Source of the DNA: Candidatus Thorarchaeota archaeon
GTDB lineage: Archaea; Asgardarchaeota; Thorarchaeia; Thorarchaeales; Thorarchaeaceae
Direction of reading: 5' to 3'
Length of the DNA stretch: 64,000 nucleotides
Assembly: GCA_003345545.1 (NCBI GenBank)
Contig: PRDH01000019.1
Span: 24,129-88,128 of the forward strand
The notes beneath the pieces are model-generated. The model searched no databases. It was not told the DNA's origin and worked only from the letters and a program-made list of their open reading frames with translations. The translations under genes and the position numbers were made by a program. Positions 32,214-63,729 of this stretch are shown one piece after another. The first letter of the stretch is position 1. The number at the start of each line of letters is the position of its first letter.

Positions 32214-32447
32214 ATTAATTCCCTACGCAATTCATCTTGGCGATAAGCAGACTATCGATGTAGCTCCGAGTCCATAAATGGCACTCACGACATCTCCCCA
32301 TAGTCAGTATTCCTATTGGTTCCTTTATATCCGTCAAGAAACGTCGTAGCTATGAAACCGCAGTCTCCATCAGGGGAAGCTTTAAAGTTGGCGTTGTGTT
32401 GAAGGAGCCTGCTGCGTTGTTGTAACAGAGCAGTGGGGCAACCTTTG

Positions 32448-32963
32448 ATGCAAATCACCGTACTCTTTACAGATCCGCTATTCCTGATTGTTTTGGTTTG
32501 GATACTCGCAGCTATTGCTGCAGCAATCTGGGCGCGCCGACCAAGAACCAAAGTGGCCAAGGTCAAAGGGCCTCTGATGAAACAGATCGGGAAGATGATA
32601 GGTGAAACAGAGAAGGGTGGCAAATTATCCGTGCCTGCTGTGAGAACGAGGCAAGAGATAATCACACGCATGTTTGAATCAAAGATGGATGCAATCGGTC
32701 TAGAACCATCCAAGGATGGCGGCTATATTCCTGTATCCACAACACCTCTAGCAAGATTCCTGAAGGACCGCGGTGTGCCAGATGATACTATCGATGCGAT
32801 TCTCGCCGGTCTAATGGAAGAGAAACAAGAAACCGAAGTGCGAGCCATCATTGACGCCGCAGCCGATTCGCCAGAGATTAATCTCGTTGGTAATGAATTG
32901 GACAAGGCAAAGGATCTTGCTGTGGAAGAATGGAAGAATCTCCGTGCGTCTGGGAAAGCCTAG
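32448..32963 (+). CDS. Single-pass membrane protein whose cytoplasmic part resembles the tail of the giant surface protein
   Basis: TM PLFLIVLVWILAAIAAAIW then RR; motifs MKQIGKMI..EKG, VRTRQEII..MF and LKDRGVP...IDAIL. Confidence 0.75.
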   Translation: MQITVLFTDPLFLIVLVWILAAIAAAIWARRPRTKVAKVKGPLMKQIGKMIGETEKGGKLSVPAVRTRQEIITRMFESKMDAIGLEPSKDGGYIPVSTTPLARFLKDRGVPDDTIDAILAGLMEEKQETEVRAIIDAAADSPEINLVGNELDKAKDLAVEEWKNLRASGKA

Positions 32964-32978
32964 GAGGGCAATCGCAGA

Positions 32979-33704
32979 TTGACTGAGCTTTTGCATATGA
33001 GAGACAATTATCAAAAATCATTTGATGCTAAAGTAGTTGCATCGGGGGCAGACTATGTCACTCTCGATCGTACTGCATTCTATCCGGAGGGTGGCGGTCA
33101 GTCCAGCGATGTTGGTGAACTCTCGGATGGTTCGCGTACCGTTCACGTAAAAGAAGTACGGAAAGTTGAGGGGGAAGTCCTCCATAAAATAGACGGACCT
33201 CCCTTTGCAAAAGGCACATCCTTGCATGGCGAAATCGACTGGAACGCTCGATACAAGTGTATGCGTTTTCACACTGCTCAACATATTCTCTCTCGCTATC
33301 TTCAACTGAATTACGGAGTCGAAACGGTCGGTAACAGTATCTCGTCTAACGAGAGTAGAGCCGACTATTCGCCCCTAGATTCATTTGAAGACGAGATGAA
33401 GAGAAACGTTGAAGCTGGTGTGAACGGCCTCATTCGGCGGAATATGGATGTCGAGGTTAGGTTCATGCCACGCAGTGAAGCTATCTCCTACTTGGAGCAG
33501 AGAGGATATCAAGCCCGATATCTGGAAATGGTGCCCAAGTCCGTGAAAGAGTTTCGTATACTACTCATTGGGGACTATGATGCCGCATCATGTGCTGGGA
33601 CTCATGTTGCCAATACAAAAGAGATTGGCGGAATCCAAATTGGCAAGTCCAAGAATGTGGGAGCCGGCAAGCGACGCATATATTTCCAGTTGCATTCTCC
33701 CTAA
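32979..33704 (+). CDS. alaX: AlaX trans-editing protein (AlaX-M type)
   Basis: LDRTAFYPEGGGQ..D.G, HTAQH, CAGTH. Confidence 0.92.
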   Translation: MTELLHMRDNYQKSFDAKVVASGADYVTLDRTAFYPEGGGQSSDVGELSDGSRTVHVKEVRKVEGEVLHKIDGPPFAKGTSLHGEIDWNARYKCMRFHTAQHILSRYLQLNYGVETVGNSISSNESRADYSPLDSFEDEMKRNVEAGVNGLIRRNMDVEVRFMPRSEAISYLEQRGYQARYLEMVPKSVKEFRILLIGDYDAASCAGTHVANTKEIGGIQIGKSKNVGAGKRRIYFQLHSP

Positions 33705-51235: not shown

Positions 51236-51414
51236 TATCCAGTTGCATTGTGTCGATAAATGGTCGAGTCTAATCTGAAACGGAATCTATTTACAGAAGA
51301 TTTCTTCTTATACACGTGATTCAATGCAATAATCGGTACGAGCGGGTGTTCCGTAAGCACGACGGATGAATGCTCGCTCAAGTACTGTACCATTCGAGAG
51401 GAGAAAGTCACCTC

Positions 51415-54400
51415 ATGAGGAGATGCGGTCTAATCTGTATTCTGTTGATAGTAGTCTTTCTAATTCCCGTAACAAGCCCATTTGCTGGGTCTGATACTAA
51501 TCTGAATAGACTCCCAGAGCTGAGCCCACTAGATGGAGGATCGACCGTATCCCAGAGTGGGGACTTGAACTCAGGCACCGGCGCATCTCTGCCTGTTTTG
51601 ATGAATGGCATTGTGTCCAGCGTAGGCGCTGGTTCCATGCAAATCACCTCTGCGAGCCCAGGCACAAGCTCTGTCACACTTACAGATGGTTGGTCTGGCA
51701 CTAACCTCGCCGCTCAGATTGATGCCCTGTCCTTTACCACCAGCAATGTTCTTAGAAACGGCAACTTGAACAACTACCATACAGAGAGGTTCATTGTAAG
51801 TTCGACCCCCACTTACAACGATGATGCAGTCTACGTGCCTGATGGTTGGACTCTGGTCAAGAGTGTCGCATCTGACGACCCTCACCCACTGTACAATGTG
51901 TATGGAATCCGGTCAGATGCAGGCGGATATGGCGGGACTTACGGCGTTTCTCTAGGGTCCCAATACTTGGCTAGCTTTGTCCACAATCCGAACGATGAGG
52001 TATTCGTTAGCCAGATGGTACCTACCCCGTGGAGGCAGGTCTATTCTGCCACGATTTCGTTCAGGTATTATGTTCATTCCAGTTCGACCATGACTGACAC
52101 ACTCCATCTATTCACTAGGCTCGGAGGCTATGTCACCAAGTACCACGTATTCGAATCTAGCGACGCCAAAACCACTTGGCTGACTGCATCCGTGACAGTT
52201 CAGGCTGCCTCTTTGCAGGGTCTTGCGAATCGTGTCTTGAAGCTTGATGTTGGTCTGGCATCTGACCTCACCGGTACTCAGACGTCGGCAGCTACTGCCA
52301 TAGCCTACATTGATGACCTGCAGTTGATGTTTCTAGCTCGACCGTTCCCTGAGCAGGTTGACCTCAAGGCAAACGGAACCATCGTCTGGGGTTCTACCTC
52401 GGGGAGCGACTATCCGTATGTCCCTGACGATGCCAATCGTGATTGCTGGGACTACTCAAACGAAATCGATCTTGATGGTTACAATAATGATGGCAATATT
52501 GAGTTCGGTATTTGGGGCAGCGATTGGACTGTAGACGCCGATTTCCAGATTGGCATTCAGTTTCCTGTGGCTGTTCCACAGGGCGCGATAGTTACCTCTG
52601 CATGGGTGGAGGTTGAAGCAATCGCCTCTTCAAGCCCCTTCATGTATGGTGCCCGAGTCTATGTTGCAGATGCTGATAATGTGGCTGCTTTCACAGCAGG
52701 ACCTCCCTCTCTCGAGAATCGATATAGTTGGGTGCCAACCAGTATAGATTGGACTTTCAACTCATGGGTCACGTCTCCTGACACCCGATACAAGTCTCCT
52801 GAGATAGGATCACTTGTTCAGAAGGTTGTCAGCCGATCTGGATGGTCCCAGGGCAACTACATATGCCTAATGATTGACTACATGAACTCTGACTATTTCC
52901 AGAGATACAGCAACATTAAGGGAAGTACGGGCTGGGGCCAGGAGGACCTTGCAAGACTCTATGTTGAGTATGTCATTCCAGAGACTGAAGACCATGTTGT
53001 CATGTACGACTATCAAAAAACCATCACGATTGATCATACGCGCGTAGCTTCCACACTAGCCAACTTCCCAGTCTTAATCGATCTCGTTGATACCGATTTA
53101 AAGAATCGTGTCCTCGCAGGTGGCAATGACATTGCTTTCACTCTGAATGGCCAACCTCTTGACTATGAGATTGAGCTTTTTGATCAGAACTATAATGCCA
53201 CGCATGCTCATCTCGTGGCATGGGTCAAAGTTCCTAGTTTGTCTAGCACTATTGATACGGCGATTACCATGCACTATGGATGTGAAGATGTACCATCGAG
53301 CTACTCCACTGGTGTGTGGGACAGCTACGAGATAGTCCAGCACCTCAATGACAACCCTGCGGGTATACAATATGACAGTGCAGCCAACAATCACCATGGA
53401 ACATCTTACGGTAGCATGGTGAGCGAGAATCTGGTAGCTGGCATGATTGGTAATGCCATCGAATTTGATGGCGCTGATGACGCCATCTCTGTTGGTCAGA
53501 TTTACACTGATCAATGGTCACAGCTTACTATGAGTGCATGGATCTATCATGACCTTACTTCGGATGACCGAATCTTCTCGAAGGCCCCTAGCACTGTCAC
53601 AGCTGATTGCATTATGCATTTGGCTGTGAATTCAGCTGGCAGAATGCGGGTCAGGCTTAGTACGAATACTGGATCTACTATATACCCTTCAGCAAACAAC
53701 GATAGCATATCAATACCAACAAACACAGCTTGGCATTACTTGTCCTGGACTTGGAGTGCAGCATCGCAGACAGTGCTTCTATATATTGATGGTGTACTTG
53801 ATAGAACTTGCTTAAAGTATGGACAAACAGTAAAAGATTCTGACCTTATGTTCATCATAGCTAATTGGGAAACTGGTACGAGCGATTCAAGGCATTGGGA
53901 TGGCAAGATTGACGAAATCAGAATGCTGCCCACGCTTCTCTCAGGCAATTGGATTCTCACAGAATGGAGAAATCAGAATAGTCCATCAACATTCTACTCT
54001 GTAGGAACAGAGTCAAAGAATCCTGATGTCTGGACCGATGCCGGAGAAACGAGTGTGCTCTTCACGACAGATTCTACGGCACCAGTCACATTGGATGTCA
54101 ACCTCACATTCGATATCGGCGGGAATGGTCAGACCCTCGATGAGGACCTTGACCCCGGTACAAGTTTCTTCATCGAGAGTGGAAGCAGCATTGTCAATTG
54201 GACCGCAAAGGTCATGGTGTCACCCCCTGCTGGCGCGACCTCGTTTGGTTTCAGTGTGGAGTATCCTATGGCTGAGTGGAAACCAACAGCAGTGCTGAAT
54301 CCATTCAGCAATATCAAGAGTTACCCGCAGGACTGGTGGTATCAGGCAGGAACTCTGTCCATCAATTCCTCGGCTATCGATTTCTGGGGTATCTGGACGC

Positions 54401-57400
54401 TCAAATTCATCAGCTGGAACTTTGCCCAAGACCTGACCTTAGGAAGAACTGGTGAAGCGCTCTCGACCACAGCGACTTTCAACATTGGCGACTCCATGAA
54501 GTACTTGGCAACCACTCCCACCGTCCAGGGAGCAACTGTCGGGCTTGTGCTGACTGATCCCAGTGGCTCCGTACGGTATTCTCTCTCTAATTCGACAATC
54601 ACTAATCCATCGCACAAGTTCCCATCATTCCAATATAGGAAGGACTTCACGATTGTCCCAACCAACAACGTGTATGAAGATGTGATCAACTTCCCAATAG
54701 CTCTCGATTTCACTGATACTGACCTTCACAGCACAAGCAAGGTTCGAGCTGATGGTTCAGACATCATGTTTGCCATGGGCAGCGCGATTCTCCCTCACCA
54801 GATAGAGTACTTCAAGCAGGACTACACTGTGACTGACGCTCGTCTGGTAGTGTGGGTCTGTGCCAATCTCTCCTCTACTGTTACGAACACATTCTCAATG
54901 TATTATGGAAGTCCAATTGTCGATAACCTCGAGGATCCTGAAGGTGTCTGGGGTCCGAATATGGAAGCAGTCTGGCATCTTGGTGAGGATGTAGTTGACG
55001 AGGCCTCGACAGGCACACATTACGATGCGACAGGTCATGGATATGATGGCATTCAACATGGGAATGTCGAGACTCTGACAACGCGAGTGGGCTATGCTCA
55101 GAGCTTTGACGGTAATGATTACATATCACTCTCCGAGTCTCTTGCCCCTGCTGATGATGTGATGATTACGGGCTGGTTCCGCCTCACCTCAATACATAGC
55201 CCCACATCACCGACCACCAAGGTAATCATGGAAAAATACCTCGATATCAATCATGATATGGTTATTGCGCTCGTAGGCCAAGACTACGGGCAGAGTCAGG
55301 TCCCGAATGGCTCACTTGTATTCAAAGTGGAGAGCTCGACAAATGCGCCAATGTATTCATGGACCTTGGGCCCCTTAGGGACTGGCACATGGAATGCCGG
55401 ATGGTACTATATCGGCTGTTATTCTAACGAATCTGATCCTTCAAAGAATAAGATCTTTATTGGATATTCACAAGCATCGTATGATGTTACGGTCGGACAC
55501 TATGGTTCAACAACACAAGCTAATATGAGCTATATCGAAGAATGGCAACTTGGTGGAGGAAACTTTGAGACTAGCTATGAAGGAACCGGTTGGTTCACTG
55601 GCCAAATGGATGAGTTCCGTGTAGCTACAATATACCGTTCTGAGGGATGGCTCAAGACCGAGTGGGATAACCAGGCATCACCTACGACATTCGCGTCGAA
55701 GGGGACTGAACAGGCCCGGACGTCACCCAATCATACATTCACGCAGACTCTCCTTTCAACTGCTCAAGCAGGTATCTGGACAGCTTCTGTCTACTACAAT
55801 GATACTGGTGCATCAGTATCGACCCGAACCGGTCTAATCGAACGCACCTTCACAGTGAAACGCAATACATACCTCACGCTCACCAAACCAATCGATGCAG
55901 TCGGTGATCGCCTGTCCGTAAAGACCGCTGGCGATGCAGTGATTGTCGAGTTCGAACTGAAGGACACTCTAAACAGTACTCAACTAGTCAACGGTGCAAC
56001 TGTCACTATCAACTGGACTTCTCCGAGCACGGTGACTCTGGACTCCTATGGAGGAGGAAAGTACGGTAAGGTGCTTGATACAAATGACCTTGCCAGTGCG
56101 AAGAGATGGCGCATCAATGTGGCATCAACTCATCCGTACTACAATAATGCGAACGAGTATTTCGATATTGACCTCTATCACAACACAGGGCTTGACTCTT
56201 CAGGTGTATCGACAACTCCCGTTGGTGAGGACTTCACCGCCACGCTCACTTTCATAGATTCTTACACAGGTACTCCCATTCAGGGAGCTACTATTACCTT
56301 TGGAGACAACTCGCCTGTCCAATCCTATGTTGACGAGGGCAGTGGTGTCTATACTGTGACTGTTGATTCTGCTGCTCTGAGCCTTGGTGATCACATATAC
56401 ACTCTCAAAGCCACTTCCAGCAATACCTATCTGAAGACTGCCACCGTCACTGTGACATTCACCTTGAGGGCGCACTACACTTCAGTTTCAGTTCAAGGGG
56501 ATTTTGTTACACCGTATGGAAGTAACACACAGGTCACCGTGGTCTTGATTGACCTAGACACTGGATTGCCGGTAGCGATTGGTAGTGTTTCAACATTCTC
56601 GTTTACAACTGACTCCTATGCAGCCGATAACTTCGGTTCACTCTCCAGCTTCACACAGATTCTGACAACAAATGACTGGTTGATAGGCACAGAGACCGTG
56701 ACTCTTACGGTCACGATGTCCAGCGCAAATTCCTTGGCTCCTGACCAATTTCAATTTGATATAACAATCAGGCGCCACAGGACTTCACTGACCGTAGCTG
56801 GAGTCGTAACACAGCCCTATGGAAATCTGACTCCACTCACGGTAATCCTCACGGATCTTGATAATGGCACTCCTGTGCCTGTCGGTGCTGTGCAACAAAT
56901 GCTGTTCCAATGGATTGGCGGGTCCCAGACCCTAAGTGGGAGTTACACGGTGTCCTTGGGCACCAGTGCATGGCCGGTGGGGACAAGGATTGTCCAAGTG
57001 ATTACCACTATGTCTAGTAACAACTATGATGCGCCCCCCAACTATCAGTTCACGATAACTATCCGCAAGATGGCAACTGTACTGTACTACGATCCTGCGA
57101 GCTTCGTGTTCCCCAAAGGGTCCGATTTCCGAGTCGGCTTGCGGCTCAATGTGAGCGAACCTGGGCAGTACTATGGCAATCCCATCACAGGTCGAGCTGC
57201 TGGTGAGTTCTCGGTACCATCCTACGTGTTCTCGCTTGATACCACACAACACTCAATCGGTCGATACAATCTGACGATTAGTTCCTCCTACTTCCCAGGA
57301 GGCACGTATGAGATTCGAGTGTATTTCCACTCAGCTGATAGTCGCTATGCTGATGCGTCTATCCTGATTCGCTTTACTTATCGCGAAATCGTCAGCTCTC

Positions 57401-60400
57401 TCACTTCACCCAACTACCCACAAGTGACCACGCCATTCGGCATGAATGTTCAGATTACCCTGAACTATGTAGATGAGGACTTTGGCACTGGTATTGTAGG
57501 TGCAACAATCTCATCCGATCCGACCTGGGTCTACGGCAAAGTTGACTTGACTGGCGGAGCCTACACCGTCTGGATTAATGTGACAGGTCTTGCTCAGAGT
57601 ACATACTACATCAATATCACCGCTTACAAGGCGGGTTTTGTCGCGAGGACACTGCAGTTCAGGATTGTTATCAGAGCCGCCTACACATCAGTGATTCCAT
57701 CAGTTGGATCGCTGGTGATACCCCTTGGCAGTTCTGTGACTTTCTACGCAGATTACACGGATCTTGATAGGCTGTTGCCAATTGACAACAACACTGGAGA
57801 CACCGATGTTGTATCCACTTGGGGCAGGTTTACAGTTGAGTACGTAGTAGGGATACAGAGATACAGAATAGTATTCCAGACTATTGATTCGGATGGTATT
57901 TCGTCAAATGTGATACGCAGTTTCACCTTCTCAAAGGGAGCGAACTACCAGACTGCGAGTTTCAATATCACTGTCACGATTCGGACACACAATACTGACT
58001 TCCGACTTGTCAGTTCCATTGAGCCCACCAGCACTATTGGCATATTCAACATCTCAGTCTACTACGGAGACTTGGACAATGCTGTTGGTGTCAAATCTGC
58101 TCTTGTGATCTTCTCTGTCCAGAACGCATCTGGACTTGTTTCCTCAAGTTATGAATACGATTCGGTGCTTGGTGACGGATTCTACATTATTCGAGTGCCA
58201 GCTTCACAATTTGGTCTTGGCCTCCAGACCTTCACCGTGTACGCTGATTGGACAGGTCCGTATTCGAAGTTCCAGGACAAGTTTCTCGTTGCGACAGCGA
58301 ACGTTGTCGGTCGCGAGTCTGCTCTCACGCTCCTCCTTTCCTCTGAACCAACACCCTACCTTGGTACAATGAGTTACACCTTCTTCTTCAGTGATATCTT
58401 CAGCGGCATTGGAATTGATAATCTGACTGGTCATGTCTTCATCTTTGTCAGTTTCCAGGGTGAGTCCGTGAGTCCCTCGGGCATCACCATAATTGACTGG
58501 TCTGCATCACAGCCGGGCAACTACTCGATTCAGTTCAACACCTCTGTCTTCAGCAGGACTGGCCTAATCTACATGGACATCTCCATGGAGTGGGCGAAGG
58601 GTGTCTCACCTTACTATGCAAACCGCACTGATGTTGTATCTCTAAGGGTGCTACAACGGGACACCTTGCTGCAGACTACACCTCCCTCTCCCACGAGTTA
58701 TGGTGAAAATGCGACCTTCACGTTCACATTTGAGGATGTAACTGGAGGACTGAGCATCCCCATCAATGATGGTCCCTCATTGACAGTTCAATTGAGTCTT
58801 GCCGACTACTCAGTATCGTACAACAGTACATCACACATATTCACAGTGTCGTTCAACACCGACCAGTTCGGCACGACACTAGGTTCACATTCATTCACCC
58901 TCGGTGTCACTTGGAGTGGTGTACCGTTCTATGCGAGTCGTACTGGAAAACTCGTATCTGTAACAGTGATTGCTCGAGAAACATTTATGGAGTTTCTCAC
59001 ACCTGCTCCCACACAGTACATGGATGCAGTCGTGTTCAATGTCACATGGATAGATATCACTGGTGGGGCTTCAGACCCAATTTCCGGTGCAGCTCTAGTT
59101 CTCTACGATGGCTTGACTCCAATCAATGTCGGCAAGTACAGCTATGCCGAAATCGCATCCGGCATATACAGAGTCACTCTCAATACAACTTACGCCCCAT
59201 CTCCAGGAACGTATCAACTGCGCGTGGGACTCAACGCCGGAGTATCATACATCGCTCCCGCCTACATTATTCGCGAATTCAATATCAGATACAGAATCAC
59301 ACTGCTCTCTGCAGAACCAGTGGCAACAGTCCCCTACAACTCGCCGGTCCAGGTCATTCTGTACTACCAAGACTTGTACACTGCGGGCTTTATTGCGAAC
59401 ACGTCAGCTGGCTCATATCCCGTGGAACTGCAGTTTGTCACTGGCAGTAATTGGATCTATTCAATCGTCTGGAATCCTGTCTTCAAGCACTATGAGCTTT
59501 CTATTGAAACTTACAATCAAGGCTTTGTCATCGGTACCCCTGTGACCGTGACGCTTAGGATGAGTTATGCAAGTCAAGCTCCCTTTTATGCCTCAGATGA
59601 TCTTGTTGTGCAGTTTACGTTGCGGCTACGGTACTCTATCTTGACTCAGACCCTAGAGCCTGAAACAACTCCTTATGATGACAATGCTCAATTCAGAGTC
59701 TTCTTTGCTGACACTGATGCAGCAGGTGCCGGTATCGCGAATGCGCAGATTGTTGTTCTCAATAACTCTGTACCCTTGTTATTGAACACGCACTACACGC
59801 TCTCCCAGGGTGTATCCGGCGAGTACATTATTACGGTCGACTCTGAGTTCCTAGGTGGCCTGGGAACCCGTTCACTCACTATCAAAGCGAATTGGATTGC
59901 TGGTTCTCCCTATCATAGCAATGCGACCCGGGTTGTCAATATCCTTGTACGTCAGAGAGAAACGAGCGTTGCCGTGACTGTGCCTCCGTCTCAAGTGAAA
60001 TACCTTGATAATGTTGTATTCACTTTTGTCTACACGGACCTAGATGCTGGCATTCCTATTACATCAATCACGACATCGAATATTCATCTCAGGTTTGCCA
60101 ACGGCACGGAGATTACGAGCGGTTTCACAATAACCCCTGTCGGTTCATCTTTTGAAGTAGTGATTTCGTCGGTCACACTCTCGAAGATTCCAGTCACTGG
60201 TCTCTCCCTCATCGTTTCTGTTGATTGGCTAGGCTCTCTAGCACCATTCTATGCAGATGCTACGACAACGCTAAAGATCACGATAGTGGGACGTAGCATC
60301 CTTGTTGAAACAGGACAGCTAGACCGAACCCCAAAAGGTGATACACTCTCGATCATCCTGGACCTCACTGATCTTGATAGTGGAAATCCTGTTTCAGGGG

Positions 60401-63400
60401 CTATCATTCTCTTCGGTTGCCAGAATGAAAGTTTTGTGCAGGGTGTCAACTACGACATCTCTGAAGTGACTGGAAGATATACCATCAGTGTATACTCAGG
60501 CAGTTTTCCAGGTACAGGCGTATTCCTATTTGATGTGCAAGTTCGTTGGAATCCACTTCTGTCACCATTCTATGGGAACAAGACAACAATCACACTCAAT
60601 GGTCTTATTGATATCATGAGGGCATCGCTCCAAGCTGGATTTCCTGCTCCTCCCACAGTACAGATTACTGGAAGCGTATGGCTCATAGTGACCTATACTG
60701 ACCTTGACCATGCACAGCTCGAAATCGGCGGAGCAACAATCAGCGTCCAATACTATGGAAGTGCACTACCCGTTCAAGGATGGACTTGGAATCCTATTGC
60801 TGGACATCCAGGTCAGTATAACATCACCTTCAGCACCTCAAATCTGCCCAGTACGGGAAGTTACACCCTTCGAATATCAGCCGTAAAGACCTACTATGCT
60901 CAATCACAGGTCACTCCATCGTTCAGTGTCACTCTAATCAGCACAAGTCTCACACCGAATGAGTCTTCGATGCAGCTCAACTGGACCAGTTCTGCACATG
61001 TATTTGTTTTCTTCCAGAGTCTACTGACAGGCTCCGGGACAACTGGAGCAACGGTCACATACTCTGTCTATGGCCTCCCAGTAACTGGCATGACACCCAC
61101 TGGCACTCCAGGTCAGTATCAAGCCGATATTGATACAACACTTATAGGTGCTGGAACGAGAGTGGTCACCATCCAAGCAAGCAAAGACCAACATGTCACA
61201 GCCACGACAACGATAACCCTTGTCATCCTCACTCTGCCCAGCGGGATGAATATCATCGCGCCTACCGAAGAGGTATTGGTAGTTCCACGTGGTAACTCTG
61301 TCGCTGTCAACATCACACTGACTGATATTATTCGCGCTCAGCCCATTCAGAATGACTTGGTAATAGAAGTCTACATCACTTTCAGAGGTCAACAATACTA
61401 TCTCGAACCTATTAATTTCACTTCGATTTGGACGGGAACCATTCCGGAGGGAGGACCTACAATACTAGATCCTGCTTCGTACGATGTCAGAATTACTGCA
61501 GTCATCACTAACTACAACCCTGCTGTGAGCCAGTTCAAAATCCTTATTGAACAGACCACGACCAAAGTAAGTCCTCTATATCCAGCAGATCCATTATTCG
61601 ATCCCGAGAGCCCGCGTATAGAAGCTGTGTACTCAGAAATCATTACTTTCAGGCTCAACTTCACTGTTCCTGCGATAAACAACACTCCAATGACTGATGC
61701 CCTTGTCTATTGGACCGATCTCCGGTGGGGACTCAATCTGAATTTCACTCACATAGGGGGCGGAATCTGGGAGCTCACATTCGACACAACCCAGTGCGCA
61801 TTTGGTACTTGGGGCATCACCTTTGCAGGGATTCCCGATGATCCGATTTATGCGGCAGCACAGGTGAGTCTAACTCTCACCATCAAGAAGATAACTACTG
61901 AGGTTATCGGGCCATTGACCACAGAGTCCTATGCTTGGGGCTGGATTGGCAACATCAGTTTCTTCTATGATGATACGTGGTTCCATACAGGTATCGACAA
62001 TGCGTCTGTAACCTTCGAATATGGTCCGTTTCCAAGCTTGTCTGCATATGACCTCGGAAATGGTACCTATTTGCTCGAAATCGATACTACATACTTGGAG
62101 TCTGACACTCGATACAGGATCACTGTCAGCTTTGCGAAAGACAACTATGAGGAAAGAACTAGTGGCGCGAATATCTTTGTGGATCTCCGAACTACAGCAC
62201 TTTCAGTGATTGTTGGCGATGATCGGACCTATCAAGCGAGTGATGATCCAAAGTTCTTGCAAGTGCCTATGAATGATTACGTGAATATTACATTCTTCTA
62301 TAACGATACGAGTCATGTTGGTGGTCTATTCGGCGGCATAAACTACGCTTCAATTCAGGCAACACTGAGAGCACAGTCCTATTTCCCGGAGGTAAGAAAT
62401 ATCACATTGGTAAGACTCGGCAACGGATACTACTGCTATATCTTTGACACCAATGATCTATCGCTCTATTGGTATAACAATGCTGTGAAAGAAATCTACT
62501 CGGACTTTTTCTACCTGTCAATCCATATGAGCTATGAGAATCGCATATCCAGAGATGTCATCATTCGTATCGAGATTATTCCTGTGCCGACTGAGATGGT
62601 GTATGATGGTCCAACGGAATTCGATGCAATTCATGGCGATGAGATTGAAGTCTACTTCACATTGAGCGACACCTGGCATAATGAGGGTGTGCTAGGTGCC
62701 AATATATCGTATCCGACCATACTCTCTGCCTCAGCTAGGGCGACCGAATCCAGATCGCTTGGGAATGGTCAGTATTATGTCAAGATTCTTGTGGTCGGTA
62801 CCAGTGGAGATTCGCTTATTCGTTTGACTCTCCAGACTGAGTTCCATGTTGATGCTGAACTCCTGATTACAGTAACTGCCAGCCCCAACGACACAGACAT
62901 CTTGATTGGTCAAGTAACGGAGATTGGACTACCCATCAGCCTAGTGGTCATAACTCTCCTTGGACTCTACGTAAAAGTGTGGAGCGTGCCGAAGCGAATA
63001 CGCCAGATAAACAAGCAGATAAAGTCGATAAGGAAGAACAAGATACCCAAGCCAATCTCCGATGTGAAAGAGAGAACTCAACTCATCGCCAACCTGTTCA
63101 ATGACACATTCGCGGAACTCAAGATCACTCGCACTGCTGCAGATATGCCCGAGGAATCCATTCCGATTCAGGTGCCTGAGATGGGCGAACTGCTCATGCA
63201 GCTGGCTATCCTCACGAATCTCAATCCTGATGAACTAGAGGAGTTCAAGGCGGACATCTCGAAGATGAAGACGAGCGAGCAGGCTGCCTTCGTGAAAGAA
63301 GTCATCATGCAGGAGGCCATGAGGGCCGCTCGACGTGATGGCAAGACCATCGAGGAAACACTTCAGGCGATCCAAAAACAGGCAGGCAAGCGTCTGAGCG

Positions 63401-63729
63401 GCGAAGAAGCCGCCGAAGCAGCCGCCGAAGCAGCCGCTCCTGTCAAGAAGGCTGCAGAAGAGCCTAGGCTGTTGCCTCCAGAGGAAGAACCAGTAGAACC
63501 CATAGTCCCAGTCAAGAAGAAAGCAGTACTCAGAAAGGGTGCCGTCGAGGAAGAGGCAGAGGCGAAATTCGAGCGGATGAGTTCGAATGAAATCGAGGAG
63601 TTGCGCAAGGATCTTGAAAAACGAGGAGTTCCTCCATACGAGATTGACACCATCCTTGAGCAGGCCCGCCAACTTCCAAGAGAACTGGTGGAAGAGCTAG
63701 TAAAGAGCCTCGAAGAGAACAAGAAGTAG
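51415..63729 (+). CDS. Giant (about 4100 aa) single-pass surface protein: signal peptide, two DUF2341 + LamG-like modules, many Ig-like repeats, TM, about 250-aa cytoplasmic domain
   Basis: YQKTITID..NFPVLI..DIAF and YRKDFTI..NFPIAL..DGSDIMF; FDGADD...WDGKIDEIR...EWRNQ; repeated Y.D.D...I.GA units; many NxS/T sequons; TM IGLPISLVVITLLGLYVKVW. Confidence 0.9.
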   Translation: MRRCGLICILLIVVFLIPVTSPFAGSDTNLNRLPELSPLDGGSTVSQSGDLNSGTGASLPVLMNGIVSSVGAGSMQITSASPGTSSVTLTDGWSGTNLAAQIDALSFTTSNVLRNGNLNNYHTERFIVSSTPTYNDDAVYVPDGWTLVKSVASDDPHPLYNVYGIRSDAGGYGGTYGVSLGSQYLASFVHNPNDEVFVSQMVPTPWRQVYSATISFRYYVHSSSTMTDTLHLFTRLGGYVTKYHVFESSDAKTTWLTASVTVQAASLQGLANRVLKLDVGLASDLTGTQTSAATAIAYIDDLQLMFLARPFPEQVDLKANGTIVWGSTSGSDYPYVPDDANRDCWDYSNEIDLDGYNNDGNIEFGIWGSDWTVDADFQIGIQFPVAVPQGAIVTSAWVEVEAIASSSPFMYGARVYVADADNVAAFTAGPPSLENRYSWVPTSIDWTFNSWVTSPDTRYKSPEIGSLVQKVVSRSGWSQGNYICLMIDYMNSDYFQRYSNIKGSTGWGQEDLARLYVEYVIPETEDHVVMYDYQKTITIDHTRVASTLANFPVLIDLVDTDLKNRVLAGGNDIAFTLNGQPLDYEIELFDQNYNATHAHLVAWVKVPSLSSTIDTAITMHYGCEDVPSSYSTGVWDSYEIVQHLNDNPAGIQYDSAANNHHGTSYGSMVSENLVAGMIGNAIEFDGADDAISVGQIYTDQWSQLTMSAWIYHDLTSDDRIFSKAPSTVTADCIMHLAVNSAGRMRVRLSTNTGSTIYPSANNDSISIPTNTAWHYLSWTWSAASQTVLLYIDGVLDRTCLKYGQTVKDSDLMFIIANWETGTSDSRHWDGKIDEIRMLPTLLSGNWILTEWRNQNSPSTFYSVGTESKNPDVWTDAGETSVLFTTDSTAPVTLDVNLTFDIGGNGQTLDEDLDPGTSFFIESGSSIVNWTAKVMVSPPAGATSFGFSVEYPMAEWKPTAVLNPFSNIKSYPQDWWYQAGTLSINSSAIDFWGIWTLKFISWNFAQDLTLGRTGEALSTTATFNIGDSMKYLATTPTVQGATVGLVLTDPSGSVRYSLSNSTITNPSHKFPSFQYRKDFTIVPTNNVYEDVINFPIALDFTDTDLHSTSKVRADGSDIMFAMGSAILPHQIEYFKQDYTVTDARLVVWVCANLSSTVTNTFSMYYGSPIVDNLEDPEGVWGPNMEAVWHLGEDVVDEASTGTHYDATGHGYDGIQHGNVETLTTRVGYAQSFDGNDYISLSESLAPADDVMITGWFRLTSIHSPTSPTTKVIMEKYLDINHDMVIALVGQDYGQSQVPNGSLVFKVESSTNAPMYSWTLGPLGTGTWNAGWYYIGCYSNESDPSKNKIFIGYSQASYDVTVGHYGSTTQANMSYIEEWQLGGGNFETSYEGTGWFTGQMDEFRVATIYRSEGWLKTEWDNQASPTTFASKGTEQARTSPNHTFTQTLLSTAQAGIWTASVYYNDTGASVSTRTGLIERTFTVKRNTYLTLTKPIDAVGDRLSVKTAGDAVIVEFELKDTLNSTQLVNGATVTINWTSPSTVTLDSYGGGKYGKVLDTNDLASAKRWRINVASTHPYYNNANEYFDIDLYHNTGLDSSGVSTTPVGEDFTATLTFIDSYTGTPIQGATITFGDNSPVQSYVDEGSGVYTVTVDSAALSLGDHIYTLKATSSNTYLKTATVTVTFTLRAHYTSVSVQGDFVTPYGSNTQVTVVLIDLDTGLPVAIGSVSTFSFTTDSYAADNFGSLSSFTQILTTNDWLIGTETVTLTVTMSSANSLAPDQFQFDITIRRHRTSLTVAGVVTQPYGNLTPLTVILTDLDNGTPVPVGAVQQMLFQWIGGSQTLSGSYTVSLGTSAWPVGTRIVQVITTMSSNNYDAPPNYQFTITIRKMATVLYYDPASFVFPKGSDFRVGLRLNVSEPGQYYGNPITGRAAGEFSVPSYVFSLDTTQHSIGRYNLTISSSYFPGGTYEIRVYFHSADSRYADASILIRFTYREIVSSLTSPNYPQVTTPFGMNVQITLNYVDEDFGTGIVGATISSDPTWVYGKVDLTGGAYTVWINVTGLAQSTYYINITAYKAGFVARTLQFRIVIRAAYTSVIPSVGSLVIPLGSSVTFYADYTDLDRLLPIDNNTGDTDVVSTWGRFTVEYVVGIQRYRIVFQTIDSDGISSNVIRSFTFSKGANYQTASFNITVTIRTHNTDFRLVSSIEPTSTIGIFNISVYYGDLDNAVGVKSALVIFSVQNASGLVSSSYEYDSVLGDGFYIIRVPASQFGLGLQTFTVYADWTGPYSKFQDKFLVATANVVGRESALTLLLSSEPTPYLGTMSYTFFFSDIFSGIGIDNLTGHVFIFVSFQGESVSPSGITIIDWSASQPGNYSIQFNTSVFSRTGLIYMDISMEWAKGVSPYYANRTDVVSLRVLQRDTLLQTTPPSPTSYGENATFTFTFEDVTGGLSIPINDGPSLTVQLSLADYSVSYNSTSHIFTVSFNTDQFGTTLGSHSFTLGVTWSGVPFYASRTGKLVSVTVIARETFMEFLTPAPTQYMDAVVFNVTWIDITGGASDPISGAALVLYDGLTPINVGKYSYAEIASGIYRVTLNTTYAPSPGTYQLRVGLNAGVSYIAPAYIIREFNIRYRITLLSAEPVATVPYNSPVQVILYYQDLYTAGFIANTSAGSYPVELQFVTGSNWIYSIVWNPVFKHYELSIETYNQGFVIGTPVTVTLRMSYASQAPFYASDDLVVQFTLRLRYSILTQTLEPETTPYDDNAQFRVFFADTDAAGAGIANAQIVVLNNSVPLLLNTHYTLSQGVSGEYIITVDSEFLGGLGTRSLTIKANWIAGSPYHSNATRVVNILVRQRETSVAVTVPPSQVKYLDNVVFTFVYTDLDAGIPITSITTSNIHLRFANGTEITSGFTITPVGSSFEVVISSVTLSKIPVTGLSLIVSVDWLGSLAPFYADATTTLKITIVGRSILVETGQLDRTPKGDTLSIILDLTDLDSGNPVSGAIILFGCQNESFVQGVNYDISEVTGRYTISVYSGSFPGTGVFLFDVQVRWNPLLSPFYGNKTTITLNGLIDIMRASLQAGFPAPPTVQITGSVWLIVTYTDLDHAQLEIGGATISVQYYGSALPVQGWTWNPIAGHPGQYNITFSTSNLPSTGSYTLRISAVKTYYAQSQVTPSFSVTLISTSLTPNESSMQLNWTSSAHVFVFFQSLLTGSGTTGATVTYSVYGLPVTGMTPTGTPGQYQADIDTTLIGAGTRVVTIQASKDQHVTATTTITLVILTLPSGMNIIAPTEEVLVVPRGNSVAVNITLTDIIRAQPIQNDLVIEVYITFRGQQYYLEPINFTSIWTGTIPEGGPTILDPASYDVRITAVITNYNPAVSQFKILIEQTTTKVSPLYPADPLFDPESPRIEAVYSEIITFRLNFTVPAINNTPMTDALVYWTDLRWGLNLNFTHIGGGIWELTFDTTQCAFGTWGITFAGIPDDPIYAAAQVSLTLTIKKITTEVIGPLTTESYAWGWIGNISFFYDDTWFHTGIDNASVTFEYGPFPSLSAYDLGNGTYLLEIDTTYLESDTRYRITVSFAKDNYEERTSGANIFVDLRTTALSVIVGDDRTYQASDDPKFLQVPMNDYVNITFFYNDTSHVGGLFGGINYASIQATLRAQSYFPEVRNITLVRLGNGYYCYIFDTNDLSLYWYNNAVKEIYSDFFYLSIHMSYENRISRDVIIRIEIIPVPTEMVYDGPTEFDAIHGDEIEVYFTLSDTWHNEGVLGANISYPTILSASARATESRSLGNGQYYVKILVVGTSGDSLIRLTLQTEFHVDAELLITVTASPNDTDILIGQVTEIGLPISLVVITLLGLYVKVWSVPKRIRQINKQIKSIRKNKIPKPISDVKERTQLIANLFNDTFAELKITRTAADMPEESIPIQVPEMGELLMQLAILTNLNPDELEEFKADISKMKTSEQAAFVKEVIMQEAMRAARRDGKTIEETLQAIQKQAGKRLSGEEAAEAAAEAAAPVKKAAEEPRLLPPEEEPVEPIVPVKKKAVLRKGAVEEEAEAKFERMSSNEIEELRKDLEKRGVPPYEIDTILEQARQLPRELVEELVKSLEENKK

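What the first reader, a model, noticed from the sequence alone, without database searches (positions are those of the whole stretch)
32448..32963. Ectodomain-less mini-version of the giant surface protein's TM and cytoplasmic module
Seen: after its single TM this protein reads PLMKQIGKMIGETEKGGKLSVP-AVRTRQEIITRMFESKM, which aligns by eye with the juxtamembrane tail of the 4100-aa protein (PKRIRQINKQIKSIRKNKIPKPISDVKERTQLIANLFNDTF). Further on, LARFLKDRGVPDDTIDAIL matches LRKDLEKRGVPPYEIDTIL near the giant protein's C-terminus. Two shared motifs occur in the same order in genes about 30 kb apart. Inference: a conserved cytoplasmic sorting/signalling module on Asgard surface proteins, with the short protein acting as adaptor, co-receptor or decoy. 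This would be a receptor-like system with no family name I recognise.
Basis: partly seen in the sequence, partly recalled or inferred. Interest (0 to 1): 0.8.

Follow-up and report, generated by a model that had tools for sequence, protein, structure and literature searches.

The report
Ectodomain-less paralogue of giant-protein tails
A small, conserved membrane protein of Thorarchaeota shares its membrane-proximal helix-loop-helix (clearly) and a short helical unit (more weakly) with the intracellular tails of the organism's giant surface proteins; this defines an unnamed, receptor-like cytoplasmic module whose function is still unknown.

Summary
The ORF at 32448-32963 is a real gene. Its 171-aa product has an N-terminal membrane anchor and a cytoplasmic body, and it was found in 80 of 85 genomes of its family, always just upstream of an AlaX-like gene.

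Pairwise BLASTP against the giant protein's tail shows nothing. Profiles of the two families align over the 46-residue juxtamembrane segment (hhalign probability 93%, E 4e-7; score 44 against 10±2 for shuffles). A second tail subfamily gives the same result.

A combined juxtamembrane profile finds exactly four ORFs in this genome: the three giants and the small protein. The small protein lacks the tail's middle domain and linker.

The shared segment is laid out as helix, 13-residue loop, helix directly after a membrane helix. This resembles a HAMP domain, but HAMP membership is not shown. No Pfam, NCBIfam or PDB family fits, and no paper describing the module was found.

Rare relatives carry the module without an anchor, fused to a Ras-like GTPase. 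The proposed roles (adaptor, co-receptor, decoy) remain untested. The scan had already noted the giant tails in other genomes, but never the small protein.

The parts
32448..32963 (+). Gene for the 171-aa small membrane protein (P0001). The ATG at 32448 is the start used by the homologues.
   Evidence: ORF and translation. 112 homologous clusters at 47-94% identity, the named ones all labelled Thorarchaeota. One full-length copy in 80 of 85 genomes of the family.
32475..32537 (+). N-terminal membrane helix (residues 10-30). It is preceded by about 9 residues with no positive charge and followed by a run of Arg/Lys, so the predicted topology is N-terminus outside, body in the cytoplasm.
   Evidence: AlphaFold2 helix 10-30 with pLDDT of about 90. 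Charge distribution read from the sequence. Relatives without an anchor that are fused to a GTPase place the domain in the cytoplasm.
32538..32570 (+). Basic linker of variable length (residues 31-41) between the membrane helix and the shared module.
   Evidence: pLDDT below 50. Insertions of up to about 30 residues in homologues (alignment).
32571..32711 (+). Juxtamembrane module (residues 42-88): helix 42-55, a loop with a KGK-like turn and a conserved Pro, then helix 68-82. This is the part shared with the giant tails.
   Evidence: hhalign probability 92.8%, E 3.9e-7. Score 43.9 against shuffles of 10.1±2.2. Nearly gapless joint alignment. Secondary structure.
32736..32948 (+). C-terminal four-helix domain (residues 97-167). 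It begins with the invariant loop at residues 91-100 (S91, G92, Y93, P95, S97, T99, P100) and the RGVP helix-turn-helix unit (101-124).
   Evidence: AlphaFold2 helices 100-107, 112-124, 128-139 and 149-167 at pLDDT 85-92. hhalign score 25.3 against the tail's terminal unit, E 1.6e-4, 0 of 70 shuffles. Sub-threshold RecX_HTH1 hit.
32979..33704 (+). AlaX-like tRNA-editing gene, probably co-transcribed. Its GGAGG overlaps the small gene's stop codon.
   Evidence: Sequence. The same pair 12-20 bp apart in three distant Thorarchaeota contigs.
51370..63729 (+). Gene for the 4119-aa giant surface protein (signal peptide, DUF2341/LamG head, Ig-like stalk, one membrane helix, 247-aa cytoplasmic tail).
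   Evidence: Precomputed Pfam PF10102 and PF13385 on orthologues.
62923..62985 (+). Membrane helix of the giant protein (residues 3852-3872).
   Evidence: AlphaFold2 models one continuous helix from the membrane span into the juxtamembrane segment.
62983..63135 (+). Juxtamembrane module of the giant (residues 3872-3922): helix, 13-residue KGK/Pro loop, helix.
   Evidence: Invariant S33, P35, K36, R39, N42, P54 and R63 in 54 tails. Helices 2-49 and 63-74 of the tail model. Matches the small protein.
63172..63432 (+). Middle helical domain of the tail (residues 3935-4021), the most conserved part of the tail. It has no counterpart in the small protein at profile level.
   Evidence: Run of invariant columns. 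pLDDT 93-98 over most of it. hhalign of the small protein's C-terminal half against it scores 14.3 and 7.4, not significant.
63583..63723 (+).
   Evidence: Helices 233-245, 250-262 and 265-279 of the tail model at pLDDT of about 95. Match to small-protein residues 101-121. Sub-threshold RecX_HTH1 hits in 9 of 54 tails.

Best explanation
The ORF encodes a real, strongly conserved, single-copy bitopic membrane protein of the Thorarchaeota family that holds this genome. Its N-terminus is outside with essentially no ectodomain, and about 140 residues lie in the cytoplasm.

Shown: its cytoplasmic part starts with a 45-residue helix-loop-helix that is homologous to the juxtamembrane segment of the conserved tails of the giant DUF2341/LamG/Ig-repeat surface proteins. 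It continues into a small helical domain whose first helix-turn-helix unit resembles the tails' terminal unit. It lacks the tails' middle domain and linker. It is therefore a stripped-down paralogue of part of the tail module, not a copy of the whole tail.

Inferred mechanism: the helix-loop-helix has heptad-spaced hydrophobic residues and the 16/13/16 layout of a HAMP domain. It is most likely an oligomerisation or docking element lying under the membrane. The giants use it to couple the membrane helix to their cytoplasmic domains. In the small protein it hangs on a floppy basic linker, so it cannot relay a signal from outside. Instead it offers the same surface constitutively, either pairing with the giants' hairpins or engaging the same cytoplasmic partner, while its own C-terminal domain provides a different output. 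A rare fusion of the module to a Ras-like GTPase hints that small GTPases belong to that output.
For: Real gene:
- 112 homologous clusters at 47-94% identity, with 10 invariant residues.
- Present in 80 of 85 genomes of the family.
- Conserved order of M20 peptidase, small gene, AlaX and a sugar nucleotidyltransferase. The next gene's Shine-Dalgarno sequence overlaps the stop codon.

Homology of the juxtamembrane module:
- hhalign probability 92.8%, E 3.9e-7.
- Scores 43.9 and 42.5 against two independent tail subfamilies, with shuffles at about 10±2 and 0 of 70 reaching the observed value.
- The tail HMM matches nearly all representatives of the small-protein family at the same positions, HMM 39-82 and, more weakly, 233-269.
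- The small-protein profile on its own picks up the juxtamembrane region of ORFs of 2500-6560 aa in related genomes at per-genome E-values of 1e-4 to 5e-6.
- A combined profile finds exactly the three giants and the small protein in this genome, with the next hit at E 0.5.

RGVP unit: score 25.3 (E 1.6e-4) and 19.2 (E 0.003), 0 of 70 shuffles. Both families give sub-threshold RecX_HTH1 hits.

Matching secondary structure in the two AlphaFold2 models.

Modularity:
- The same module sits behind a 540-aa Ig-repeat ectodomain (P0267).
- It occurs twice in a 1581-aa protein (P0266).
- It sits between membrane helices in a 358-aa protein.
- It occurs without any anchor, fused to a Ras-family GTPase (P0251 and a 313-aa ORF of G363, which is 55% identical to small-protein residues 40-137, E 2e-27).

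HAMP-like layout:
- Helix, 13-residue loop, helix directly after the membrane helix.
- hhalign of the tail's juxtamembrane segment against 24 Asgard HAMP domains scores 19.9 over the full length in the expected register, with 0 of 80 shuffles reaching it. The small protein's segment scores 14.1, with 1 of 80.
Against: - The two individual sequences are not significantly similar; the case rests on profiles of a 46-residue segment.
- The small protein has no counterpart of the tails' most conserved (middle) domain, so a shared partner is not guaranteed.
- HMMER aligns the small protein's RGVP unit contiguously onto the start of the middle domain in the 2585-aa subfamily, whereas hhalign prefers the terminal unit. 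Positional equivalence of the second motif is therefore ambiguous, and this kind of helix-turn-helix is common.
- HAMP membership fails Pfam's model, and hhalign gives only 23% probability. Column shuffles destroy helical periodicity, so any amphipathic hairpin could beat them.
- The small gene is never next to a giant gene, and its neighbours are housekeeping genes.
- The GTPase fusion was found in only 1 of 86 genomes of the family, plus one other assembly.
- No structural neighbour gives a functional hint: best Z 6.3 and 7.0, which is generic for helical bundles.
Confidence: 0.55

Rival explanations
1. Independent function. The juxtamembrane helix-loop-helix is only a reusable structural cassette, as HAMP is in unrelated receptors. 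On this reading the small protein has nothing to do with the giants: it neither binds them nor shares partners, and it works through its own C-terminal four-helix domain, perhaps in a housekeeping process linked to its conserved operon with AlaX and a sugar nucleotidyltransferase.
For: - The small protein lacks the tails' middle domain.
- Its synteny is conserved with housekeeping genes and it is never adjacent to a giant.
- The juxtamembrane segment alone occurs on many otherwise unrelated Asgard membrane proteins of 500-1350 aa in other families and on P0266 and P0267 with different downstream sequence.
- Its best-conserved residues (the loop at 91-100, E161, W162) lie outside the shared segment.
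Against: - The full tail and the small protein have the same narrow phyletic range, 80 of 85 genomes of the family each.
- A second, colinear motif is also shared.
- This genome has only four carriers of the module.
Confidence: 0.3
2. True HAMP-type signalling. The giants are transmembrane receptors whose juxtamembrane hairpin is a divergent HAMP domain forming a dimeric four-helix bundle. The small protein is a sensor-less transducer, comparable to the haloarchaeal HtrII transducer that works beside sensory rhodopsin. It pairs with a giant in the membrane and passes the signal to cytoplasmic effectors such as small GTPases.
For: - Position right after the membrane helix, and a continuous helix from the membrane span into the first helix of the giant's hairpin.
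- Helix, loop and helix lengths of 16, 13 and 16 residues. A conserved Pro at the start and a Gly at the helix-loop boundary.
- hhalign against Asgard HAMP domains scores 19.9 and 14.1 over the full length, above 79-80 of 80 shuffles.
- GTPase fusion of the module.
Against: - Pfam's HAMP model finds only one ORF in this genome and never a tail; there were no HAMP hits at E up to 1.
- hhalign probability is only 23%, and the second tail subfamily aligns in a different register.
- The second helix is not continued by an output helix as in classical HAMP receptors.
- In the small protein a disordered linker of variable length separates the membrane helix from the hairpin.
- Anchor-less relatives keep the hairpin.
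Confidence: 0.12
3. Chance or convergent similarity. Both are basic, amphipathic stretches that follow a membrane helix under the positive-inside rule, plus a common helix-turn-helix motif. On this reading the proteins are unrelated.
For: BLASTP of the pair is not significant. The segments are short. The RGVP-like motif resembles RecX-type and similar repeats found in many proteins.
Against: - Profile-level E-values of 4e-7 and 1e-8 with the membrane helices removed, about 14-15 SD above shuffles.
- The same register in two tail subfamilies and in short-tailed proteins. An identical six-residue string at the start of the second helix (residues 65-70 of the small protein) also occurs in the juxtamembrane segment of a 6555-aa protein.
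- Anchor-less relatives, which are not basic, keep the segment.
- Genome-wide rank of 1 and 2 for two independent tail HMMs.
Confidence: 0.05

Closest known systems
HAMP domain (Pfam PF00672) of bacterial and archaeal transmembrane receptors
   Same: It sits directly after a membrane helix. It has two amphipathic helices of about 16 residues joined by a loop of about 13 residues, a Pro at the start and a Gly at the helix-loop boundary. There is a weak full-length profile match (score 19.9).
   Different: It does not reach Pfam's model, and hhalign probability is only 23%. No output helix continues from the second helix. It occurs on single-pass type I giants, on a protein with a floppy linker, and on soluble proteins. 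Dimeric bundle formation was not tested.
Truncated or ectodomain-less receptor paralogues and transducers (for example haloarchaeal HtrII beside sensory rhodopsin; decoy or co-receptor isoforms of eukaryotic single-pass receptors)
   Same: A membrane anchor plus part of the intracellular module of larger receptors, encoded by a separate gene in the same genome.
   Different: This is an analogy only. No sequence relationship exists, no binding has been shown, and the small protein lacks the tails' main (middle) domain.
RecX three-helix repeat (Pfam PF21982 RecX_HTH1)
   Same: The RGVP unit of both families gives sub-threshold hits: 14.1 bits for the small protein, 6 of 50 small proteins and 9 of 54 tails. 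Anchor-less relatives carry extra repeats of this kind.
   Different: It is below the curated cut-off of 26 bits in the small protein. There is no RecA-related context. It is probably only a shared small helical motif.
Cytoplasmic tails of the Thorarchaeota giant DUF2341/LamG surface proteins (unnamed family)
   Same: Homologous juxtamembrane helix-loop-helix, and a related helix-turn-helix unit in the same order.
   Different: No ectodomain and the reverse membrane insertion type (N-terminal anchor). No middle domain and no acidic/Pro linker. Its own C-terminal helices and an invariant loop at residues 91-100.

Membership tests
Giant-protein cytoplasmic tail module (unnamed, Thorarchaeota) | Juxtamembrane helix-loop-helix with conserved Pro, a KGK-type turn, Pro, and an Arg-Gln at the start of the second helix | tested here: met
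   hhalign probability 92.8%, E 3.9e-7. Scores 43.9 and 42.5 against shuffles of about 10±2, 0 of 70. Joint alignment nearly gapless.
Giant-protein cytoplasmic tail module (unnamed, Thorarchaeota) | Module lies on the cytoplasmic side, after a membrane helix | tested here: met
   Charge distribution and AlphaFold2 helix 10-30. In the small protein a 10-residue linker of variable length intervenes.
Giant-protein cytoplasmic tail module (unnamed, Thorarchaeota) | Middle helical domain (the most conserved block of the tails) | tested here: not met
   hhalign of small-protein residues 88-171 against the middle domain scores 14.3 and 7.4, in the range of unrelated pairings.
Giant-protein cytoplasmic tail module (unnamed, Thorarchaeota) | Terminal three-helix unit with the G-V-P turn | tested here: met
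Support is modest, and HMMER offers an alternative placement.
HAMP (PF00672) | Score at or above Pfam's gathering cut-off (25 bits) | tested here: not met
   No HAMP hit at E up to 1 for the small protein or the tail, nor at E up to 0.1 in 50 + 54 family members. The genome search with PF00672 finds one other ORF in this genome and no tail.
HAMP (PF00672) | Helix, loop of about 14 residues, helix directly following a membrane helix | tested here: met
   Tail model: helix 2-49 (membrane span plus first helix), loop 50-62, helix 63-74. Small protein: helices 42-55 and 68-82.
HAMP (PF00672) | Profile-profile similarity to bona fide HAMP domains | tested here: inconclusive
   Against 24 Asgard HAMP domains: 19.9 (probability 23%, E 9e-4) and 14.1 (E 0.02) over the full length; shuffles reach these in 0 of 80 and 1 of 80 trials. 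The second tail subfamily aligns in another register.
HAMP (PF00672) | Parallel four-helix bundle in a dimer | not tested
RecX_HTH1 (PF21982) | Score at or above the gathering cut-off (26 bits) | tested here: not met
   14.1 bits, E 0.049, for residues 101-120. 6 of 50 members match at E up to 0.1.

The most novel reading that the evidence does not exclude
The giant lectin-headed proteins of Thorarchaeota are genuine transmembrane receptors. A divergent HAMP-like juxtamembrane hairpin relays events at the cell surface to a conserved cytoplasmic domain. The 171-aa protein is their sensor-less partner or transducer, pairing through the same hairpin and connecting the system to small Ras-like GTPases. 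This would be a prokaryotic forerunner of adhesion-receptor signalling in the lineage related to eukaryotes.
Probability: 0.12. Interest if true: 0.85.

Novelty: new variant of a known kind. Interest (0 to 1): 0.55.

Why it matters
Prokaryotic giant adhesins and S-layer proteins usually end a few residues after their anchor. Here several giant proteins per genome carry a folded, highly conserved tail of about 250 residues. A separate core gene supplies part of that tail without any ectodomain. That is the architecture expected of receptors and their accessory subunits.

Asgard archaea are the closest known relatives of eukaryotes and have an actin cytoskeleton, ESCRT proteins and many small GTPases. 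A defined, testable intracellular module on their surface proteins therefore gives a concrete handle on how these cells couple the outside to the inside.

Even on the modest reading, the result defines a new domain family. Its 45-residue core can now be searched for, expressed and used as bait.

Tried and rejected
- Pairwise BLASTP of the small protein against the tail: not significant.
- Pfam and NCBIfam on both: only sub-threshold noise.
- PDB sequence profiles: nothing below E 0.25.
- Foldseek against the PDB for both models: no hit below E 1.
- VIA-align wide search: best Z 6.3 for the small protein's C-terminal domain and 7.0 for the tail, both in the range of generic helical bundles.
- ESM Atlas feature search: best score 0.76, uninformative.
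- My first column-shuffle control gave one absurd outlier (133.5), caused by moving gap-rich columns. I repeated it on match columns only.
- I considered that the small protein's RGVP unit corresponds to the first helices of the tail's middle domain, as HMMER's contiguous alignments to the 2585-aa subfamily suggest. Profile-profile scores do not support this (7.4 and 14.3), so it stays an open alternative.
- Complex prediction of the small protein's cytoplasmic part with the giant tail's cytoplasmic part: no verdict (ipSAE 0.00). This is no evidence either way.
- Sequencing-run search: no RNA holder listed; the DNA is held by wetland metagenomes. This says nothing about expression.
- Neighbourhoods of the giant genes: only housekeeping genes, no candidate partner.
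- Literature searches for the tail, DUF2341 in Asgard archaea, or HAMP-like Asgard receptors: nothing relevant found.
- The GTPase fusion is not widespread: 1 of 86 genomes of the family.
I reran it from stored files.

Full report
**What is at the coordinates.** Window 32448-32963 (+) is an ORF of 171 codons. An in-frame GTG lies five codons upstream, but the homologues start at the ATG.

The product starts with about nine residues carrying no positive charge. A hydrophobic helix follows (residues 10-30; AlphaFold2 pLDDT about 90), then a run of Arg/Lys. This is the signature of an N-terminal anchor with the N-terminus outside and the body in the cytoplasm, so 'ectodomain-less' is correct.

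The giant protein is window 51370-63729 (+), 4119 aa. It has a signal peptide, one membrane helix at residues 3852-3872 and 247 residues behind it.

**Is the gene real?** Yes.
- A search of 5.8 billion proteins returned 112 clusters at 47-94% identity over the full length. Every named one is labelled Thorarchaeota.
- An alignment of 50 of them has 10 invariant and 31 nearly invariant columns.
- In 400 genomes of the phylum, a full-length copy was found in 80 of 85 genomes of this genome's family and in no other family. The five genomes of the family without a match are 52-84% complete.
- Three contigs whose small proteins are 50-67% identical to ours show the same gene order: M20 peptidase, sometimes a PurE gene on the other strand, the small gene, an AlaX-like editing gene 12-20 bp downstream, then a sugar nucleotidyltransferase.
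- In the window, a GGAGG overlapping the small gene's stop codon precedes the TTG start of the AlaX-like gene. The two are therefore probably co-transcribed.

**Is the similarity to the giant tail more than chance?** Not for the two sequences alone: the best BLASTP E-value is 1.7. At family level it is.

The tail is itself a conserved family. At least 125 proteins of 2300-6450 aa carry it behind very different ectodomains. An alignment of 54 tails has 41 invariant columns. Nearly every genome of the family shows several tail matches, 1-12 and commonly 3-8.

The evidence for the shared segment is as follows.
- Profile against profile, the small-protein family and the tail family align over 46 columns with hhalign probability 92.8% and E 3.9e-7. 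The match covers small-protein residues 43-88 against tail residues 37-83, that is, the segment just inside the membrane and not the membrane helix.
- I cut both alignments into pieces. The juxtamembrane pieces score 43.9 and the pieces holding the RGVP motif 25.3. All four off-diagonal pairings score 8-14.
- Shuffling the match columns of the small-protein pieces gives 10.1±2.2 (maximum 16.8) and 10.6±2.3 (maximum 15.6). None of 70 shuffles reaches the observed value.
- A second, independently built alignment of 34 tails from the 2585-aa giant subfamily gives 42.5 (E 1e-8) and 19.2 (E 0.003).
- The tail HMM matches nearly every representative of the small-protein family at the same two places, HMM 39-82 and 233-269.
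- Among the 13,057 ORFs of this genome, the tail's juxtamembrane HMM ranks the small protein first after the three giants. The HMM of the tail's last domain ranks it second after them.
- The small-protein profile, searched blind over related genomes, picks up the juxtamembrane region of ORFs of 2500-6560 aa.
- A joint alignment of the juxtamembrane segments is almost gapless. A profile built from it finds exactly four ORFs in this genome, the three giants and the small protein, with the next hit at E 0.5.

**What is shared and what is not.** The AlphaFold2 model of the tail (mean pLDDT 82.7) shows, in order:
- one long helix running from the membrane span through the first juxtamembrane helix (tail residues 2-49);
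- a 13-residue loop;
- a second helix (63-74);
- a very confident middle helical domain (99-182);
- a disordered acidic/Pro linker;
- a terminal three-helix unit (233-279).

The small protein (mean pLDDT 74.6) shows the membrane helix, a disordered basic linker (31-41), helix 42-55, a loop, helix 68-82, an invariant loop, and a confident four-helix domain (100-167).

The helix-loop-helix is the securely shared unit. HMMER places it instead on the first helices of the middle domain in one subfamily. Both families also give sub-threshold hits to the RecX three-helix repeat. I read the motif as the same kind of small unit, with uncertain positional equivalence.

The tails' most conserved block, the middle domain, has no counterpart in the small protein. 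The small protein is thus a paralogue of part of the tail, not a miniature of all of it.

**The module is mobile.** An exhaustive profile search of 1.84 billion representative proteins found only 33 hits. Besides orthologues they include:
- a 676-aa protein with Ig-like repeats, a membrane helix and a short tail that matches profile positions 30-127 of the small-protein model (P0267);
- a 1581-aa protein with two ectodomain-anchor-hairpin units (P0266);
- anchor-less proteins that keep the hairpin at their very N-terminus (P0249, P0257, P0113);
- an anchor-less copy fused to a Ras-family GTPase (P0251; Ras E 7.6e-21).

A 313-aa orthologue of that fusion occurs in a genome of the same genus. 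It is 78% identical to P0251 and 55% identical to small-protein residues 40-137, E 2e-27. It was found in only 1 of 86 genomes of the family. Another genome has the module between membrane helices in a 358-aa protein.

Outside the family, the small-protein profile matches only the anchor-plus-hairpin part of membrane proteins of 500-1350 aa in several other Asgard families. The complete tail is confined to this family and its sister family.

**How it may work.** The hairpin has hydrophobic residues at 3-4 spacing. Its helix, loop and helix lengths (16, 13, 16) match those of a HAMP domain, and it sits where HAMP sits.

I tested this idea. Pfam's HAMP model finds one ordinary HAMP protein in this genome and never a tail. 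An alignment of 24 Asgard HAMP domains gives 19.9 against the tail hairpin (probability 23%, E 9e-4, full length, expected register) and 14.1 against the small protein's hairpin. These are above 80 of 80 and 79 of 80 shuffles, but the second tail subfamily aligns differently. This supports a HAMP-like layout, not membership.

In the giants the hairpin is rigidly continuous with the membrane helix. In the small protein it hangs on a linker of variable length, and in soluble relatives it is free. The common denominator is therefore most likely an oligomerisation or docking surface rather than a mechanical relay.

My preferred reading is that the small protein presents this surface constitutively under the membrane. 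It would pair with the giants' hairpins or engage the same partner, and add its own output domain. The GTPase fusion is a weak pointer to that output. All of this is inference.

**Comparison with what is known, and novelty.** No Pfam, NCBIfam or PDB family covers the module. Fold searches return only generic helical bundles. Five literature searches found no description of it.

First-stage notes of this scan had repeatedly flagged the giant tails in other genomes, but never the small protein. The nearest known concepts are HAMP-type juxtamembrane converters and truncated receptor paralogues or transducers. I rate the finding as a new variant of a known kind, of moderate interest. The homology is solid, the architecture is unusual for prokaryotes, and the function is open.

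Noticed in passing
window 32961-32981: The stop codon of the small gene overlaps a GGAGG that sits 11 nt before the TTG start of the AlaX-like gene. This suggests translational coupling of a membrane protein with a tRNA-editing enzyme, and the pair is conserved across the family.
   Followed up: partly
own genome, contig C26 68045-84498 (outside the window): Two further giants (2899 and 2585 aa) with the same tail lie head to tail with overlapping stop and start. This tandem pair recurs at the same spacing in most genomes of the family, which hints at a two-subunit surface structure.
   Followed up: partly
L082:187-1128 (-) and P0251: An anchor-less copy of the small protein's module is fused to a Ras-family GTPase. 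In the P0251 contig it lies next to another anchor-less paralogue (P0113) and near a second Arf/Ras-like GTPase with an ARPP-1-family neighbour.
   Followed up: partly
L083:147-1223 (+): A 358-aa variant carries the small protein's anchor and module, followed by a second membrane helix, an extracytoplasmic domain of about 150 aa and a third membrane helix.
   Followed up: no
own genome, contig C37 2225-2410 (-): The only Pfam-detectable HAMP domain in this genome lies at the very C-terminus of a 494-aa protein that stops a few residues after the domain, so it is a receptor with a HAMP domain and no output domain. The same protein recurs in related genomes.
   Followed up: no
P0266 (1581 aa, from the representative library): One ORF contains two consecutive units, each an ectodomain, a membrane helix and a juxtamembrane hairpin, followed by a long run of about 20-residue repeats. 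It may be a fusion or a mis-joined pair of genes from a low-GC Asgard lineage.
   Followed up: no
window 32214-32447: In two of the three related contigs examined, a PurE (AIRC) gene on the minus strand lies between the M20 peptidase gene and the small gene (L001, L005). The window has only a 235-bp spacer there, as in L003.
   Followed up: no
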